A stretch of DNA of 64,000 bases from a virus, in the IMG/VR virus record IMGVR_UViG_3300028840_004913, positions 1 through 64,000 of that record; one strand, written 5' to 3'. The notes below the pieces were generated by a model. The model made no database searches. It saw nothing but the letters and a program-made list of their open reading frames with translations, and had not been told where the DNA came from. Positions within the stretch are counted from its first letter, which is position 1. Every line of letters begins with the position of its first letter. Positions 35,731 to 42,241 of this stretch are shown here, piece after piece. The translations under genes were made by a program, and so were the position numbers.

Positions 35731-37365
35731 TTATGTCCACCCCTTAGGGCTTGCCATTTGTTTTTGTTTTTCGATTGCCTGCAGCGGAGCCTGTGGCGGC
35801 GGCTGAGGTACGGCGCCGGCTATCTCACCTTTGAGGGCGATCTCCTTAAATGCAGAGCATCCATGGCTGGCCCAATCATGCAGGATCTTCTCCCGGTAGC
35901 ATCCGAGCTTATCATTCCATTCCTTTCGAAGCGAGTCCAGGCAATCTATACCACGCTCGCATTCCTCCTCGTCGAAATGGCATATCGGTAGAATCAATCG
36001 GACGGATTCTATTTGCATCGTCTCTGATACCTTAGGACCTATCTCGAATTGCACCCCGGCTTCCTTGCACAGCGCCCATACCGTCTTATTCAGCGCCCAA
36101 ACATGCTGAGACAGGTCATGGGGTCCCTGCCATAGCCTGATCCTCGTATTGTGCTCCTTGGCCCATTCAATGGCATAATCCCGGTAATGCGGGAAGCCTT
36201 CTCCAGAGTTTTCGTAATAATGCACAAGATGGACCTGCCGGCCGACGACCTGGACAAACCATATGGCTGTTTCGTCATGGTATCCAATGTCCCAATAGGT
36301 ATCTATCGGAAGGTGCTCGACCACAGGTACCTTGCCGATACGTCCCTGCTTCCTGGCTGACCTCATCTGCTTCTGGTAATATGCGCCCTCCATCGACTTA
36401 AAGAAAGCTTCATCCGGAGTCGACGGGTGCTCTTGGAGCATGAATTCGCCCTGGGTAGCCTCTGTCTGGACATACCACGCCTTTTGCTCTGGAGTAAGGT
36501 GGACCCTCTGCTTTAACTCGAGATCTTCAAAATACTTTTGCAGCCTCTCAGGGATAGCAGTCTGGCCCGGGTCAATCCTGTTCAGGTCATTCTCCGGCCA
36601 TCCAAAAAAGAAAAACTTGTATTGCTTCTGGCCAAGTTGTGCACGCATTTCCTTCAACGCCCTGGCCTGCTTTACCATTTCGAAATATTTTCCCTCGCGG
36701 CCCTCCGCGGTCGATTCGATTGTCACGATATTGCCGGCATGGATCGCATTAAGGGTACCGGTGATAACCTCCTGTGCCTTCAATGGGTACCTGGCGCAGA
36801 TCTTCCCGAGCTCAGAGATATGGATAAGCTGGTAGGTTCCAGACCGGCCAGAGGTTGTAACCCTGATCGAAGATCCATTCTTAAACGATAGGTGCTTACT
36901 CGATATCCGGCTGCCACCCAACTGATCTTTTAATTCTTCCGGTAGGTTATCGTAAGCAAACTTCACCTTTTTCTGGAAAAAGTCCTCGGCGTCGTCCTTA
37001 TTGTGGGCTATAATAGCGGCATGGGTGTTCGAGTTGAACATGCAGATGTCCAAATATAACAGGCACATGAAGGTGGTGATACCATGCTGGCGGGATTTCA
37101 GGATGATGTTACAATACCACATCCCGAGGTAAAGCAGCTTCTGAGCGTAATTCATTCGAAATGGTATCTGGTTACCGTCCTTATTGACAATCTGGTAAAG
37201 ATTATCAATTCGCCAGCGCTGAGAAGAGAACCGCTTGTGGAGCTCGATATATGCATCGATCTCCGCCGGCGGCATACCTGCTGTCCTAAGCTGCTGTTTT
37301 AATTCCTTATAATACTCAGGACTCCTGATCCCCTGAGAGGTACTTTGCCCGACATTCATTTTCAA
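35731..37365 (-). CDS. terL: Terminase large subunit
   Basis: LKSRQHGITT Walker A, HISE Walker B, ESTAEG, WDIG..D, HDWASH; start may be ATG 37359. Confidence 0.95.
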   Translation of the reverse strand: MKMNVGQSTSQGIRSPEYYKELKQQLRTAGMPPAEIDAYIELHKRFSSQRWRIDNLYQIVNKDGNQIPFRMNYAQKLLYLGMWYCNIILKSRQHGITTFMCLLYLDICMFNSNTHAAIIAHNKDDAEDFFQKKVKFAYDNLPEELKDQLGGSRISSKHLSFKNGSSIRVTTSGRSGTYQLIHISELGKICARYPLKAQEVITGTLNAIHAGNIVTIESTAEGREGKYFEMVKQARALKEMRAQLGQKQYKFFFFGWPENDLNRIDPGQTAIPERLQKYFEDLELKQRVHLTPEQKAWYVQTEATQGEFMLQEHPSTPDEAFFKSMEGAYYQKQMRSARKQGRIGKVPVVEHLPIDTYWDIGYHDETAIWFVQVVGRQVHLVHYYENSGEGFPHYRDYAIEWAKEHNTRIRLWQGPHDLSQHVWALNKTVWALCKEAGVQFEIGPKVSETMQIESVRLILPICHFDEEECERGIDCLDSLRKEWNDKLGCYREKILHDWASHGCSAFKEIALKGEIAGAVPQPPPQAPLQAIEKQKQMASPKGWT

Positions 37366-38127: not shown

Positions 38128-38398
38128 AAATGTTGCGGATTAAGCTCTTCGATCTCACAGATTAAGCCATGAGGCTGAGATTGTCTATGCCTATATCCGC
38201 TGGTTGTAAGTTATACAGGCGGCTCATGTACGCCCGACTGCAGTTTACCCTCTAAATGTTAGCGGGACTCTCCCCGCTGTCACGGTGGTATTTGTTTTTC
38301 GGTCGCAGGCGTGGCCATCTCGCCCCCCTAAGTCTTGCACACCGTTTGTAGACTTACTCGGTAACCCGCTCTAACGGGTGACTGTAAATGTTGAAACC

Positions 38399-38429
38399 AT
38401 AATACCATGGATTTGTATTTAATGGTGCA
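38399..38429 (-). promoter_or_regulatory. TGCACCATT-box promoter
   Basis: TGCACCATT-N13-TGg-TATTAT. Confidence 0.8.
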
Positions 38430-38490
38430 AAATACTTTATTCTTTGATACAATTCGTTGATCACAAACATACAAAAAATAAAATAAATGT

Positions 38491-38567
38491 TGGTCGCGGG
38501 AGGAGGATTTGAACCTCCGGCCTGATGGTTCCAAACCACCCGCGCTACCAGGCTGCGCTACCCCACG
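38491..38567 (-). tRNA. tRNA-Pro(TGG)
   Basis: Cloverleaf folded by hand; loop TTTGGAA; CCA encoded. Confidence 0.9.
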
Positions 38568-38570
38568 ACA

Positions 38571-38646
38571 TGGAAGAGGGTAAAGGAGTTGAACCTTTAA
38601 CATCCGGCGTCAAAGACCGGTGCTCTGCCGATTGAGCTAACCCTCT
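38571..38646 (-). tRNA. tRNA-Gln(TTG) by anticodon
   Basis: AGAGGGT/ACCCTCT acceptor; loop CTTTGAC; TCCA end. Confidence 0.85.
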
Positions 38647-38654
38647 GATATTAC

Positions 38655-38725
38655 TGGAGCCAGATGCAGGAGTTGAACCCGCCCTCTGTGCTTACAAAAC
38701 ACATTAGCCCCCAGGGCAATCTGGC
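38655..38725 (-). tRNA. tRNA-Thr(TGT) with reduced D-arm
   Basis: GCCAGAT/ATCTGGC acceptor; loop TTTGTAA; 71 nt. Confidence 0.8.
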
Positions 38726-38726
38726 C

Positions 38727-38802
38727 TGGTAGCCGATCCTGGACTTGAACCAGGGACCACAGCATTATCGGTGCTGCGCTCTACCAACTGAGCTAATCGG
38801 CT
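38727..38802 (-). tRNA. tRNA-Ile(GAT)
   Basis: AGCCGAT/ATCGGCT acceptor; loop CCGATAA; CCA. Confidence 0.9.
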
Positions 38803-38807
38803 CCATT

Positions 38808-38984
38808 TTATGCTGCCTTAAATTCTCCGCACGGATCGCCATCACGTTTAACACATGGATATCTGCTTCTTGATCCATCCTTTTCTGTCTGACATTCCGG
38901 AGGGAATCTGACACAAAACCCCTTGTAAATCGACATCTCTCTATAGTACCGACAATCCTCACATTTATCCTGTGGCTTCGGCAT
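38808..38984 (-). CDS. 58-aa Cys-rich microprotein (not in ORF track)
   Basis: MPKPQDKCEDCRYY...GFCVRFPP...PCGEFKAA, translated by hand. Confidence 0.7.
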   Translation of the reverse strand: MPKPQDKCEDCRYYREMSIYKGFCVRFPPECQTEKDGSRSRYPCVKRDGDPCGEFKAA

Positions 38985-39251
38985 AATACACCTACCCTTT
39001 CAGGGTAGACTTACAAGCTTCCGATTTCATTCAGTATACGTTAGATCAGGATGAGGGTTAGTCCACCCTCGTTTAAATGATGCGAGCAGGCGTCCGGTTT
39101 CACCGGCCATCACAAGGATTTGCAGATCCTTCAAGCCTCCACGGATTTACCCGCCCTTGGCACTCGGGAGTCCTCTGTAAACCGCAACGGCTGCAACCAA
39201 TTACGACTCCAGCAGGAAGCGACCTATGCCCTCTATGGTTAATGTTTAAAT

Positions 39252-39379
39252 TGGTAGCCTGGCAAGGAGTTGAACCTTGCACGCCTATCCTGGAGCGACC
39301 AGGGTCTTTGCACGCGACTACTAACATACTGAGCCAGCCGACAACCGGTATGGACTGACTGTTCTGCTTTGTCCAGGCC
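39252..39379 (-). ncRNA. 128-nt tRNA-like RNA
   Basis: GGCCTGG/CCAGGCT acceptor, CAAGG-TTCAACT-CCTTG T-arm, ACCA end; non-canonical interior. Confidence 0.75.
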
Positions 39380-39389
39380 ATAAAGTATT

Positions 39390-39474
39390 TGGTAGCGCGG
39401 GTTGGAGTTGAACCAACACAGGCCTAAGCCCACAGATTTACAGTCTGCTACCCTCGCCTATGGGTTGCCACGCT
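39390..39474 (-). tRNA. tRNA-Tyr(GTA)
   Basis: Loop CTGTAAA; long variable arm; CCA. Confidence 0.9.
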
Positions 39475-39683
39475 ATTGATCTTCGTCCGCTGCCATCCAC
39501 AGCGTTACAAAATCATCCGTTTGCATTGGAGACGGCTGCGGTATCTCATGAGCCGGATAAACTGTTTTGCTTTCCCATATCGAAAAAAGGCACCCGCATT
39601 TAAAGCATCGATAATACTCACCATTAAGATGCTCCCACGGATAGGGATGTTTGCATTTAGAAAGTTTCCCGGCGAACACCTCT

Positions 39684-40001
39684 TTAATCATCAGCTTTAT
39701 ACGGCCATGGTATTTCTGCATGATCATACCATACGCTGATTGTGAGCTTCTCCTCCGGATCCCGTTCTGGCCTATCATCCTCTTCGCAAAGCCGCTTGTG
39801 GAAAACATAATACGCGAGCGTCAGGGGATTCGTATGGAAAAGGCGGCCGGCAAGGTGTTCGTCGACTACCTTCTCAGAAGGAAATGCAATGCTAAGCAGG
39901 TGTTTTGACACGAAAAAAATACATTTTCCCGTTTCCTTCTTGATAAAAAGGACACGGTCGCCATCGTCTAAGTATCTGTATTCTCCTGGTACTATTCCCA
40001 T
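39684..40001 (-). CDS. Hypothetical protein
   Basis: Adjacent ORF in the operon. Confidence 0.6.
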   Translation of the reverse strand: MGIVPGEYRYLDDGDRVLFIKKETGKCIFFVSKHLLSIAFPSEKVVDEHLAGRLFHTNPLTLAYYVFHKRLCEEDDRPERDPEEKLTISVWYDHAEIPWPYKADD

Positions 40002-40307
40002 TTAAGCGTCCTCCCAAAAGACCGATATTTTATATTGTTTACCGCACCGTGGGCACCGTGTATTCACGATCTTATCTACCGAAAAAACGGATACCTCATA
40101 AATAGACTCGACATCCACCCGAACACCACAACACGGACCCTGGAACAGCCTGAGGATCTTCGTATCGTTAATATGCTGGTCCTTGACTGTTCGCCGGCTG
40201 TCGCATTTGCCGGTCATTAGACAATCGTAAGCCTTCATTTCTGTGTTGATTCCCATTGCATCTAATGGGCGATCCACCAAATATCTATTCATTGCTCCCC
40301 CTTTCAA
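40002..40307 (-). CDS. Zn-binding hypothetical protein
   Basis: PCC...CPRC. Confidence 0.6.
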   Translation of the reverse strand: MKGGAMNRYLVDRPLDAMGINTEMKAYDCLMTGKCDSRRTVKDQHINDTKILRLFQGPCCGVRVDVESIYEVSVFSVDKIVNTRCPRCGKQYKISVFWEDA

Positions 40308-40529
40308 ATGAACTGGTAGCCCAGGGGATCTTAACCACCATGGCCGGCCAAAGCCATGGGAGCCTCACCCCCGGGTATTACCAGACCTGCTGCAGTCCAG
40401 GTTTTACCGTTTTGCACTCTAACATTCGTAATGTTATTGTGCAAAAAATGGTTGGGTAGCCAGGTCTGGATCCCTGGCCGCCCCGGGCTGCATTCTCCGA
40501 TACGGAAGAGCGCAGCCTCTGTCCAGATG

Positions 40530-40949
40530 TTATGAGCCATCGAGAACAGGCTCAAATCCGATAACCACCGCGCTGCTGGCGCCCGATACGTCAGATCCAT
40601 AGATACCGCGCAGGACGTCCATCAGGACGATAGGATTGCGACATATGCCGTCATGCAACTTTGTGAACACAAACGGCGGGATATCTGCCAGGCTGCAGGT
40701 CATGACATGCGTTATGACAGCGTTGCCGATCTGCTGTTCGTCCGAATCTTGCATCGGCAGGACCTTGCCTACTAACATCGGTTTGGCCCATTTATCACCA
40801 ATGCGGACGGTGAAATTGAGCCCCTTCTTAAACTCGAGGCGCTTAAAATCCAATGTTTTCGGAAGGATAGCGTCTCCTAAAGGCGCCTGGTATCCTTTCG
40901 GATTGCAGCCTTCATCCCCGAACTCATCCATTAAAGGATCTGTGCTCAT
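40530..40949 (-). CDS. ASCH/PUA-like domain protein (tentative)
   Basis: KG.NFTVRIG...GNAVITHV pattern. Confidence 0.45.
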   Translation of the reverse strand: MSTDPLMDEFGDEGCNPKGYQAPLGDAILPKTLDFKRLEFKKGLNFTVRIGDKWAKPMLVGKVLPMQDSDEQQIGNAVITHVMTCSLADIPPFVFTKLHDGICRNPIVLMDVLRGIYGSDVSGASSAVVIGFEPVLDGS

Positions 40950-41426: not shown

Positions 41427-41690
41427 TCAATCACGGAGCCCCCTTTGCTGCATTGCTGTATTACGGTCCTGGCTCGTTCTGTACGCTTCCATAGCCTGGT
41501 CGTATCCTTCCCAACCGTCGACTCCGAAGGTCATAAGGATCAATAAGAATTTGACATCTGCCTTGAGTGCATCATATTCCTGTTTTGTGATTGTAACGCT
41601 CTCATCTGTATCCACATAAACAGAAAGACCTGAATCGGTGCGGTGGCGTTTTATCGACTCATCCTTTGATTCAATATTCGACTCATCCAT
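41427..41690 (-). CDS. Hypothetical phage protein
   Basis: VTITKQEYDAL...GVDGWEGYDQA. Confidence 0.7.
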   Translation of the reverse strand: MDESNIESKDESIKRHRTDSGLSVYVDTDESVTITKQEYDALKADVKFLLILMTFGVDGWEGYDQAMEAYRTSQDRNTAMQQRGLRD

Positions 41691-42241
41691 TATCCGACCT
41701 CATGGGGAAGCCTGCCCCTGTTTTGCCCATCGATTGATACCAGGATCTGCGTGAGATTGTTTATAATCGTGTCGCCTACCGGATCCTTCTTGAACCCCAT
41801 AATAGTCTCAAGCCTATCGAGTGCGGCACCCTTCGAGTGGAATTTGAGTGTCCGCTTTGTCACGCCGGCGACGGACGACTCCCTGATCTCAGATATGGCC
41901 CGGGCAACATCGTCAGGCAGATCTTGTATCGGCTTTATATTTCCGTTGTTATCATAAAGATCCTTCGGATTGAGGAATGCAATACAAGCCTCTTCCGATA
42001 AGATCCGGTCGAGATCGACATAAAGATTCTGCTCTGCGACGTCCTGGGCCTTTGTCTCTAACTCGCTAAGCCTCTGTATTACAACAGGATCCTTAAGCCA
42101 TCGTGAGGCCTGAGCCCAGGCGCTTTCCTTCTTGCAATTCGGAAAGACCTGCATATAGGCTTTGCCTGCAGAGCTCGGGTCCCTGAAATAATACTCTGCG
42201 AATTTATTTCTATTCGCTATGGCTACTGAGGATTTGCTCAT
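41690..42241 (-). CDS. terS: Terminase small subunit
   Basis: KFAEYY..AY..ASRWLKDP HTH; IAF...LYD.NG..KPI.DLP...KLKFHSK.AAL-like C-terminus. Confidence 0.8.
   Translation of the reverse strand: MSKSSVAIANRNKFAEYYFRDPSSAGKAYMQVFPNCKKESAWAQASRWLKDPVVIQRLSELETKAQDVAEQNLYVDLDRILSEEACIAFLNPKDLYDNNGNIKPIQDLPDDVARAISEIRESSVAGVTKRTLKFHSKGAALDRLETIMGFKKDPVGDTIINNLTQILVSIDGQNRGRLPHEVG

What the first reader, a model, noticed from the sequence alone, without database searches (positions are those of the whole stretch)
39252..39379. 128-nt CCA-ended tRNA mimic with a replaced D/anticodon half
Seen: a 7-bp acceptor stem, a perfect T-arm with the same TTCAACT loop as its neighbours and an ACCA end, spaced like a member of the tRNA array. 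The interior is ~100 nt with no D-arm; it has CATAC/GTATG enclosing CCGG-TTGTCGG-CTGG, a CCTGG/CCAGG hairpin and a duplicated GCGTGCAA. There is no G3-U70 and it is too short for tmRNA. Inference: a new tRNA-like RNA processed by RNase P, possibly a decoy for tRNA-targeting defences or EF-Tu.
Basis: partly seen in the sequence, partly recalled or inferred. Interest (0 to 1): 0.7.

Follow-up and report, generated by a model that had tools for sequence, protein, structure and literature searches.

The report
Orphan tRNA-shaped gene without anticodon half
A phage tRNA gene cluster holds one 128-base gene that keeps the upper half of a tRNA (end stem, T arm, CCA tail), but its middle is not detectably folded and matches nothing known; it is most likely a rearranged tRNA copy, and nothing shows that it is a purpose-built decoy.

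Summary
On the minus strand, 39379->39252, there is a 128-nt unit with a 7-bp acceptor stem (G1-U72 wobble plus 6 Watson-Crick pairs), a perfect T arm with a UUCAACU loop, and A73-CCA. It starts 10 nt after tRNA-Tyr in a phage tRNA array that lies between terS and terL. ARAGORN and Rfam do not call it as tRNA, tmRNA, Y RNA or intron-bearing tRNA.

The 93-nt interior folds no better than shuffled sequence (z +0.13). The neighbouring tRNAs give z -1.4 to -2.9, and T4 rnaC gives -4.6. I found no homologue: not in the phage's own second, diverged tRNA array, not in 1.56 Mb of related loci, and not in IMG/VR or INPHARED.

Weak traces link it to the phage's tRNA-Ile: the same outer acceptor pairs and 3' end, the same slot upstream of a conserved neighbouring RNA, and an interior piece resembling the Ile T arm (p about 0.01).

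Best reading: a tRNA-derived, non-decoding unit that host tRNA-processing enzymes probably still cut out. It may be a relic or a processing handle. The decoy idea is untested. The closest precedent is T4 rnaC. This scan has noted similar tRNA-shaped RNAs in other phages. Interest is modest.

The parts
39252..39379 (-). The whole 128-nt tRNA-shaped unit
   Evidence: My scan for acceptor, T arm and NCCA. No call by ARAGORN or Rfam.
39373..39379 (-). Acceptor 5' strand GGCCUGG (positions 1-7); U at -1
   Evidence: Pairs 7/7 with positions 118-124. Pairing probability is about 0.9 when the unit is folded alone.
39280..39372 (-). 93-nt interior with no D arm and no canonical anticodon arm
   Evidence: MFE z-score +0.13 against shuffles. 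No similarity to anything outside the genome.
39332..39360 (-). Predicted hairpin at positions 20-48 (8-bp stem AGUCAGUC/GGCUGGCU). It competes with the CCGG-UUGUCGG-CUGG hairpin, whose 7-nt loop reads GUC.
   Evidence: z -1.9 on its own. The alternative hairpin at 39334-39348 has probability 0.05-0.24.
39289..39303 (-). Hairpin CCUGG-UCGCU-CCAGG (positions 77-91)
   Evidence: Probability about 0.9. With its flank it resembles the T arm and 3' acceptor strand of tRNA-Ile, p about 0.01.
39308..39315 (-). First copy of the 8-nt direct repeat GCGUGCAA
   Evidence: The 31-nt register has 18/31 matches, p 0.05-0.13.
39277..39284 (-). Second copy of GCGUGCAA, running into the T stem
39263..39279 (-). 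T arm CAAGG-UUCAACU-CCUUG (positions 101-117)
   Evidence: A 15-mer is shared with tRNA-Gln.
39252..39262 (-). Acceptor 3' strand CCAGGCU plus ACCA. The last 8 nt, GGCUACCA, are identical to the end of tRNA-Ile at 38727-38802.
39390..39474 (-). tRNA-Tyr(GUA), the upstream neighbour, 10 nt away
39072..39236 (-). Conserved structured RNA directly downstream. It is not part of the unit, but it defines the unit's slot in the array.
   Evidence: 88% core identity to 98394-98484. Five compensatory pairs between the two copies.

Best explanation
The unit is a tRNA-derived, non-decoding gene of the phage's own tRNA array. It keeps an intact tRNA top half: a 7-bp acceptor stem stacked on the T arm, then A73-CCA. 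This top half closes a 93-nt interior that is neither a cloverleaf nor a demonstrably folded domain.

Inferred mechanism: it is transcribed with the array. RNase P cuts before G1, which is preceded by U-1. The 3' end is trimmed back to the encoded CCA. The result is a 128-nt CCA-ended RNA that has no D arm and no anticodon arm and so cannot read a codon.

Inferred origin, with weak support: a rearranged paralogue of an array tRNA, most likely tRNA-Ile. In this copy of the array an intact tRNA-Ile lies 450 nt downstream, which makes the paralogue redundant.

What it does now is open. Either it is a relic that is still processed, or it survives because its top half serves as the processing handle that frees the 5' end of the conserved RNA 16 nt downstream. 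In the second array a normal tRNA-Ile fills that position.
For: Shown:
- The acceptor stem, T arm and ACCA are intact, and the unit starts 10 nt after tRNA-Tyr. The chance of such a 5' partner in that position is about 1%.
- The T loop is the same as in three neighbours, and a 15-mer is shared with tRNA-Gln.
- It is not a tRNA, tmRNA or intron-bearing tRNA for ARAGORN, and no Rfam family matches at E<=10 except noise-level mascRNA and tRNA-Sec matches.
- The interior has z +0.13.
- The second array of the same genome (97558-98809, 11 tRNAs) has no counterpart.
- In that array tRNA-Ile2 sits directly upstream of the homologous conserved RNA.

Hints:
- The four outer acceptor pairs and GGCUACCA match tRNA-Ile.
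- Interior positions 68-99 match the Ile T arm plus 3' strand, p about 0.01.
- A relaxed ARAGORN run sees a poor 79-nt tRNA in the 3' part.
- Related phages carry other damaged tRNA genes: an 11-nt duplication in a tRNA-Tyr in L002, a tRNA-Ile with a replaced T loop in L005, and a 136-nt unit in L007.
Against: A colinear alignment of the whole unit to any of the phage's 18 tRNAs and tRNA-like units (16 called by ARAGORN) is not better than shuffles. The 31-nt repeat is only marginal. The tRNA-Ile ancestry is therefore a hint, not a result. Both stems of the top half are perfect while the interior is unrecognisable. That fits selection on the top half, meaning a function, as well as it fits a recent one-step rearrangement. 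When the unit is folded with 52 nt of downstream context, the acceptor stem is lost in the prediction, though that context cuts the neighbouring RNA arbitrarily.
Confidence: 0.55

Rival explanations
1. A purpose-built functional tRNA mimic. The top half recruits host tRNA enzymes or EF-Tu. The interior, for example the hairpin with the Asp-type GUC loop beside tRNA-Tyr, titrates a host factor such as an anticodon nuclease that attacks the Tyr/Asp/Asn/His tRNA group.
For: The top half is perfect while the interior has diverged. The phage invests in tRNA repair: RtcB is encoded beside the second array. T4 rnaC shows that phage tRNA clusters do make stable tRNA-like RNAs (PMC3014915, PMC9697503). 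The CCGG-UUGUCGG-CUGG loop fits the Y32-U33-NNN-R37 pattern.
Against: The GUC hairpin has a predicted probability of only 0.05-0.24. The interior is no more stable than shuffles. No homologue or covariation was found. The unit is absent from the paralogous array, which is the one next to rtcB.
Confidence: 0.2
2. Only the 3' 50-80 nt is a tRNA remnant, and the far 5' strand pairs with it by coincidence. No discrete 128-nt RNA exists; the rest is spacer.
For: A 7/7 partner somewhere within 270 nt is expected 18% of the time. Four of the other T-arm/NCCA units in this genome also have such extra partners. ARAGORN at a low threshold models positions 50-128 as a poor tRNA, and Infernal aligns 75-124 as a mini tRNA-like fold. 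The 5' 37 nt of the interior (positions 8-44) resembles no tRNA.
Against: The perfect partner lies exactly where an array member should start, with U at -1 (about 1% by chance). It shares GGCC with the 5' end of tRNA-Ile2. It is thermodynamically preferred over the 5/7 and 6/7 alternatives.
Confidence: 0.15
3. A working decoding tRNA of unusual shape: Asp(GUC), or a tRNA with an intron or very long variable region.
For: The 7-nt loop UUGUCGG sits at about the usual distance from the 5' end. In the second array tRNA-Asp follows tRNA-Tyr, as this unit does here.
Against: There is no D arm. There are 53 nt between that hairpin and the T arm. ARAGORN with introns allowed finds nothing. The tRNA model gives no match. 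The 5' part is not similar to tRNA-Asp beyond chance.
Confidence: 0.04
4. A tmRNA tRNA-like domain on its own, like that of mycobacteriophage DS6A, which would titrate SmpB.
For: It has an acceptor stem, a T arm and no anticodon arm. A TLD-only molecule in a phage is on record (PMC4131195). One frame of the interior ends in UAG UAG (read).
Against: Pair 3-70 is C-G, not G-U. ARAGORN's tmRNA mode finds nothing even at a 70% threshold. No Rfam tmRNA family matches. The phage has no smpB.
Confidence: 0.03
5. Protein-coding sequence or an attP fragment. A 93-codon ORF (39100-39381, minus strand) starts at the base before the unit and has a lipoprotein-like N-terminus. Alternatively, the 3' tRNA end is an integration core.
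For: The frame is open. tRNA 3' ends are common attP cores (general knowledge).
Against: No ribosome-binding site precedes the ATG. Neither overlapping ORF has any protein relative. The downstream half of the ORF is a conserved RNA with an indel between its two copies. The genome has no tyrosine or serine recombinase.
Confidence: 0.03

Closest known systems
Phage T4 rnaC (species 1 RNA, 139 nt) and rnaD, the small stable RNAs of the T4 tRNA cluster
   Same: Both are encoded inside a phage tRNA gene cluster on the same strand. rnaC carries a canonical T arm (CCGGG-UUCGAAU-CCCGG) directly next to a stem formed by its two ends, and it has no anticodon arm. Its function is still unknown (PMC3014915; confirmed as late RNAs in PMC9697503).
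   Different: There is no sequence similarity beyond a 17-nt T-arm word. rnaC's interior is strongly structured (z -4.6) whereas this one is not (z +0.13). rnaC's terminal stem has mismatches and no encoded CCA, while this unit has a perfect 7-bp stem and ACCA.
Degenerate or pseudo-tRNA genes in phage tRNA arrays
   Same: The T arm, 3' strand and CCA are of the phage's own tRNA type. The same genome and related phages hold several tRNA genes with shrunken D arms, internal duplications or replaced T loops that the finders miss.
   Different: Those still show a recognisable anticodon arm and a near-normal length of 70-101 nt. This unit is 128 nt, and its interior cannot be aligned colinearly to any tRNA.
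tRNA-like processing signals (t-elements and the tRNA-punctuation model of organelles)
   Same: An acceptor/T-arm module without a decoding function, placed just before another RNA that needs a defined 5' end. Here that RNA is the conserved one 16 nt downstream.
   Different: This comparison rests on my own knowledge of the model. No processing data exist for this phage.
tmRNA tRNA-like domain only (mycobacteriophage DS6A; PMC4131195)
   Same: A phage-encoded RNA with an acceptor stem and a T arm and no anticodon arm.
   Different: This unit has no G3-U70, no tmRNA call and no helix 2-type pairing.

Membership tests
Canonical tRNA (Rfam RF00005) | 7-bp acceptor stem, T arm with a U54-U55-C56-R57-A58 loop, and discriminator plus CCA | tested here: met
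Canonical tRNA (Rfam RF00005) | D arm, and an anticodon arm with a 7-nt loop at the canonical place; model score of 29 bits or more | tested here: not met
   No RF00005 match at E<=10, even with only 158 nt searched. No ARAGORN call at the default threshold.
Intron-bearing tRNA | A cloverleaf is restored once an intron is removed from the anticodon loop | tested here: not met
   ARAGORN -i with introns of 0-3000 nt finds only tRNA-Tyr. No group I or group II intron match in Rfam.
tmRNA / tRNA-like domain of tmRNA | G3-U70 alanine identity pair | tested here: not met
   Pair 3-70 is C-G
tmRNA / tRNA-like domain of tmRNA | Recognised by tmRNA finders or models | tested here: not met
   ARAGORN -m at a 70% threshold finds nothing. 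No Rfam tmRNA family at E<=10.
T4 rnaC-type tRNA-cluster RNA | Encoded within a phage tRNA cluster, with a T arm next to a stem formed by the two ends, and no anticodon arm | tested here: met
T4 rnaC-type tRNA-cluster RNA | Sequence or structure homology to rnaC | tested here: not met
   Only a 17-nt T-arm word matches in L085
T4 rnaC-type tRNA-cluster RNA | Accumulates as a discrete stable RNA during infection | not testable with these tools
YrlA / bacterial Y RNA (RF02553) | Match to the model; a Ro (TROVE) partner gene nearby | tested here: not met
   No RF02553 match on the unit. The genome has no TROVE gene.
mascRNA-menRNA (RF01684) | Model score of 42.5 bits or more | tested here: not met
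   14.5 bits, E 1.4

The most novel reading that the evidence does not exclude
The unit is a maintained, non-decoding tRNA look-alike. Host RNase P and 3' trimming turn it into a stable CCA-ended RNA. Its interior, including the Asp-type GUC hairpin beside tRNA-Tyr, soaks up a host tRNA-targeting defence or another tRNA-binding factor, working alongside the phage's RtcB repair gene.
Probability: 0.1. Interest if true: 0.7.

Novelty: new member of a known kind. Interest (0 to 1): 0.3.

Why it matters
If it is only a rearranged tRNA copy, it matters little, apart from showing how phage tRNA arrays decay and reshuffle. It would also show that tRNA finders miss several units in this phage group. 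If the top half is kept on purpose, it adds a case to the old unsolved question of what tRNA-cluster RNAs such as T4 rnaC are for. It would also offer a simple system for testing whether a bare acceptor/T-arm module is used as a processing handle or a decoy.

Tried and rejected
- Searches for homologues all failed:
  - a 25-mer of the 3' end in IMG/VR gave 0 hits;
  - a gapped pattern linking the GUC hairpin to the T arm gave 0 hits;
  - blastn against INPHARED matched only the neighbouring tRNAs;
  - blastn-short and nhmmer against 1.56 Mb of fetched loci gave only T-arm words;
  - the phage's own second array has no counterpart.
- Searches for close relatives of the phage also failed:
  - TerL alone found nothing in IMG/VR;
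  - a TerL alignment found 80 loci, all at 59% identity or less;
  - the JGI metagenome scan returned two loci; the closer one (64% identity) has no tRNA array upstream of terL and the other was not examined;
  - the GTDB genome scan gave only relatives at 34-56% identity, mostly in Chlamydiae MAGs.
- I tried to recover the relative's sequence through spurious ORFs called over the unit. There were no protein hits on either strand.
- A search for antisense targets in the genome found only chance 11-13-mers.
- TRF found no tandem repeat.
- The consensus scan for promoters and terminators gave no more sites than shuffles.
- The L007 136-nt unit was considered as a family member. It has no relatives of its own and no alignable similarity, so I did not use it as support.
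- Specific ancestry from tRNA-Asp (5' part) or tRNA-Trp was considered and found not significant.

Full report
**Context.** The window is the first 64 kb of a 103,145-nt IMG/VR virus record that CheckV rates as complete. Genes run on the minus strand. The finding lies in a tRNA array between a small terminase gene (41690-42241) and a large terminase gene (35731-37365). In this array ARAGORN calls tRNA-Tyr (39390-39474), then Ile, Thr, Gln and Pro (38491-38802). Rfam confirms four of them at gathering score and the fifth, a Thr with a shrunken D arm, at 31.8 bits.

**The observation.** The unit reads 5'->3' on the minus strand from 39379 to 39252:
- GGCCUGG at positions 1-7;
- a 93-nt interior;
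- CAAGG-UUCAACU-CCUUG at 101-117;
- CCAGGCU at 118-124;
- ACCA at the end.

The acceptor stem is G1-U72 plus six Watson-Crick pairs. The T stem is 5/5, and the T loop has the usual U54-U55-C56-A57-A58. My own scan for this architecture returns this unit as the only one in the window beyond the five tRNAs that ARAGORN calls. In the whole genome the same scan also picks up a 71-nt Thr-like unit at 98155-98225 that ARAGORN misses. Three neighbours share the same T loop, and a 15-mer is identical to tRNA-Gln. The unit starts 10 nt after the CCA of tRNA-Tyr, with U at -1.

**Is it more than chance?** The T arm, 3' strand and CCA are plainly tRNA-derived. The 5' strand needs care. In this genome 7.3e-4 of all 7-mers can pair 7/7 with CCAGGCU. 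A partner somewhere within 270 nt is therefore expected 18% of the time, and four of the other T-arm/NCCA units in this genome do have such spurious extra partners. A partner within 15 nt of the preceding tRNA's end is expected only about 1% of the time. Two poorer internal partners exist: positions 50-56 pair 5/7 and positions 75-81 pair 6/7. Folded alone or with 10-nt flanks, the outer stem forms with probability about 0.9.

**What it is not.**
- ARAGORN does not call it at the default threshold, with introns allowed, or as tmRNA, even at a 70% threshold. At 80% it offers only a poor 79-nt 'Ala(CGC)' model of positions 50-128, with two acceptor mismatches and a weak D stem.
- Rfam gives no tRNA, tmRNA, Y-RNA or intron match at E<=10. 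The best matches are mascRNA (14.5 bits against 42.5 needed) and tRNA-Sec (11.7 against 47).
- Pair 3-70 is C-G.
- The phage encodes no SmpB, no Ro/TROVE protein, no CCA-adding enzyme and no integrase or resolvase.
- The two 93-codon ORFs that overlap the unit have no protein relatives. The minus-strand ORF has no ribosome-binding site.

**The interior.** It folds no better than dinucleotide shuffles, with z +0.13. The whole unit gives z -0.38. The neighbouring tRNAs give -1.4 to -2.9, and T4 rnaC gives -4.6. Predicted elements:
- a hairpin at positions 20-48, probability 0.9;
- a competing CCGG-UUGUCGG-CUGG hairpin with a GUC loop, probability only 0.05-0.24;
- the CCUGG/CCAGG hairpin at 77-91, probability 0.9.

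With a single sequence, none of these can be validated.

**Relatives.** I found none. The same genome holds a second, diverged copy of the region at 97363-101190, 70-88% identical where it can be aligned. That copy has 11 called tRNAs and an rtcB gene. It has no counterpart of the unit.

It does hold a homologue of the RNA that lies just downstream of the unit. The pair 39072-39236 and about 98389-98560 has an 88% identical core and five compensatory pairs. That neighbour is therefore a real structured RNA, and the unit is not conserved alongside it. In the second array the gene directly upstream of that RNA is tRNA-Ile2.

Searches outside the genome (IMG/VR, INPHARED, JGI metagenomes, GTDB genomes and 1.56 Mb of fetched loci) gave nothing beyond T-arm words. 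One close relative of the phage exists, a 103,413-nt contig whose TerL is 86% identical.

**Origin.** Several weak signals point to the phage's tRNA-Ile:
- The four outer acceptor pairs are those of tRNA-Ile: the 5' GGCC as in Ile2, and the 3' GGCU-ACCA as in Ile1.
- The unit occupies Ile2's slot relative to the conserved RNA.
- Interior positions 68-99 resemble the Ile T arm plus 3' acceptor strand, p about 0.01 against shuffles, with both Ile genes as the top hits.
- A GCUCAGU D-arm word lies at positions 46-52.

Against these signals, a colinear alignment of the whole unit to any of the phage's 18 tRNAs and tRNA-like units is not significant. The 8-nt repeat at 31-nt spacing extends to 18/31 matches, which is only marginal (p 0.05-0.13). 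I read this as a tRNA gene that was rearranged or partly duplicated, but I cannot reconstruct the event.

Related phages (TerL 52-59% identical) also carry tRNA arrays upstream of terL, and those arrays contain damaged members:
- a tRNA-Tyr with an 11-nt internal duplication (L002);
- a D-arm-poor 70-nt unit (L003);
- a tRNA-Ile with a replaced T loop (L005);
- a 136-nt unit with acceptor, T arm and GCCA (L007).

Decay and remodelling of tRNA genes is therefore common in this group.

**Mechanism.** Shown: the sequence has what RNase P and the 3' trimming enzymes need, namely U-1, G+1, a 12-bp acceptor/T minihelix and RCCA. Inferred: it is cut out of the array transcript as a 128-nt CCA-ended RNA that cannot decode. 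Open: whether it is a relic or is kept as a processing handle for the downstream RNA. A perfect top half next to an unrecognisable interior fits either selection on the top half or a recent one-step event. The decoy idea remains possible, since the phage has RtcB, but nothing here supports it specifically.

**Comparison with what is known.** The nearest precedent is T4 rnaC, a 139-nt RNA in the T4 tRNA cluster with a canonical T arm next to a terminal stem. Its role is still unknown (PMC3014915, PMC9697503). The unit works like rnaC in layout but is not homologous to it. A phage RNA consisting only of the tmRNA tRNA-like domain is also on record (DS6A, PMC4131195), but the defining G3-U70 pair is absent here. 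Earlier notes of this scan describe similar tRNA-shaped RNAs in other phages and also name rnaC as the closest known. I had reached rnaC independently, and I treat those notes only as leads.

**Verdict.** The unit is an orphan, tRNA-derived, non-decoding member of a phage tRNA array. It is a new member of a known kind and of modest interest.

Noticed in passing
window 39072-39236 (-) and G000 98389-98560 (-) (L084:8389-8560): A conserved RNA of about 150-165 nt lies directly downstream of the unit. Its core is 88% identical between the two arrays, with five compensatory pairs. Its 3' domain is closed by a 7-bp stem followed by GCACCA in copy 2 and GCAUCA in copy 1. No Rfam match at E<=10.
   Followed up: partly
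G000 97363-101190, against window 38382-40697: The genome carries two diverged copies (70-88% identical) of a module made of small ORFs, structured RNAs and a tRNA array. The second copy has 11 called tRNAs and an rtcB gene at 99753-100760.
   Followed up: partly
G000 98155-98225 (-) and 97812-97905 (-): Two more tRNA-like units that ARAGORN misses. One is a 71-nt Thr(UGU)-like gene with a reduced D arm and a UUUGAUU T loop. The other is about 93 nt, with a CUUGAAC loop (possibly Ser UGA) and an imperfect T arm.
   Followed up: no
window 40313-40492 (-): The intergenic stretch ends in ...CCCCUGGGCUACCA. An 8-bp stem CCCGGGGG/CCCCUGGG closes a palindromic hairpin, and a possible far partner AGCCCGG lies about 180 nt upstream. 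It is homologous to a stretch beside rtcB in the second copy.
   Followed up: no
window 38808-38984 (-): A 58-aa Cys-rich ORF sits inside the tRNA array between the conserved RNA and tRNA-Ile. No PHROG match.
   Followed up: no
L002:3241-3341, L005:7262-7339, L003:382-451, L007:1259-1394: Related phages (TerL 52-59% identical) have aberrant tRNA genes upstream of terL: a tRNA-Tyr with an 11-nt internal duplication, a tRNA-Ile(GAU) whose T loop reads GGCGGAA, a 70-nt D-arm-poor unit with a GCA loop, and a 136-nt unit with acceptor, T arm and GCCA that has a D-arm-like hairpin.
   Followed up: partly
L086-L112: Among GTDB genomes, this terminase family (34-56% identity) turns up mostly on contigs of Chlamydiae and Parachlamydiales MAGs. 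This may hint at the host range of the wider phage group.
   Followed up: no
window 39100-39381 (-): A 93-codon open frame over the unit begins with a lipoprotein-like signal (hydrophobic run, then VVAC). It has no ribosome-binding site and no protein relatives, so it is probably chance.
   Followed up: yes
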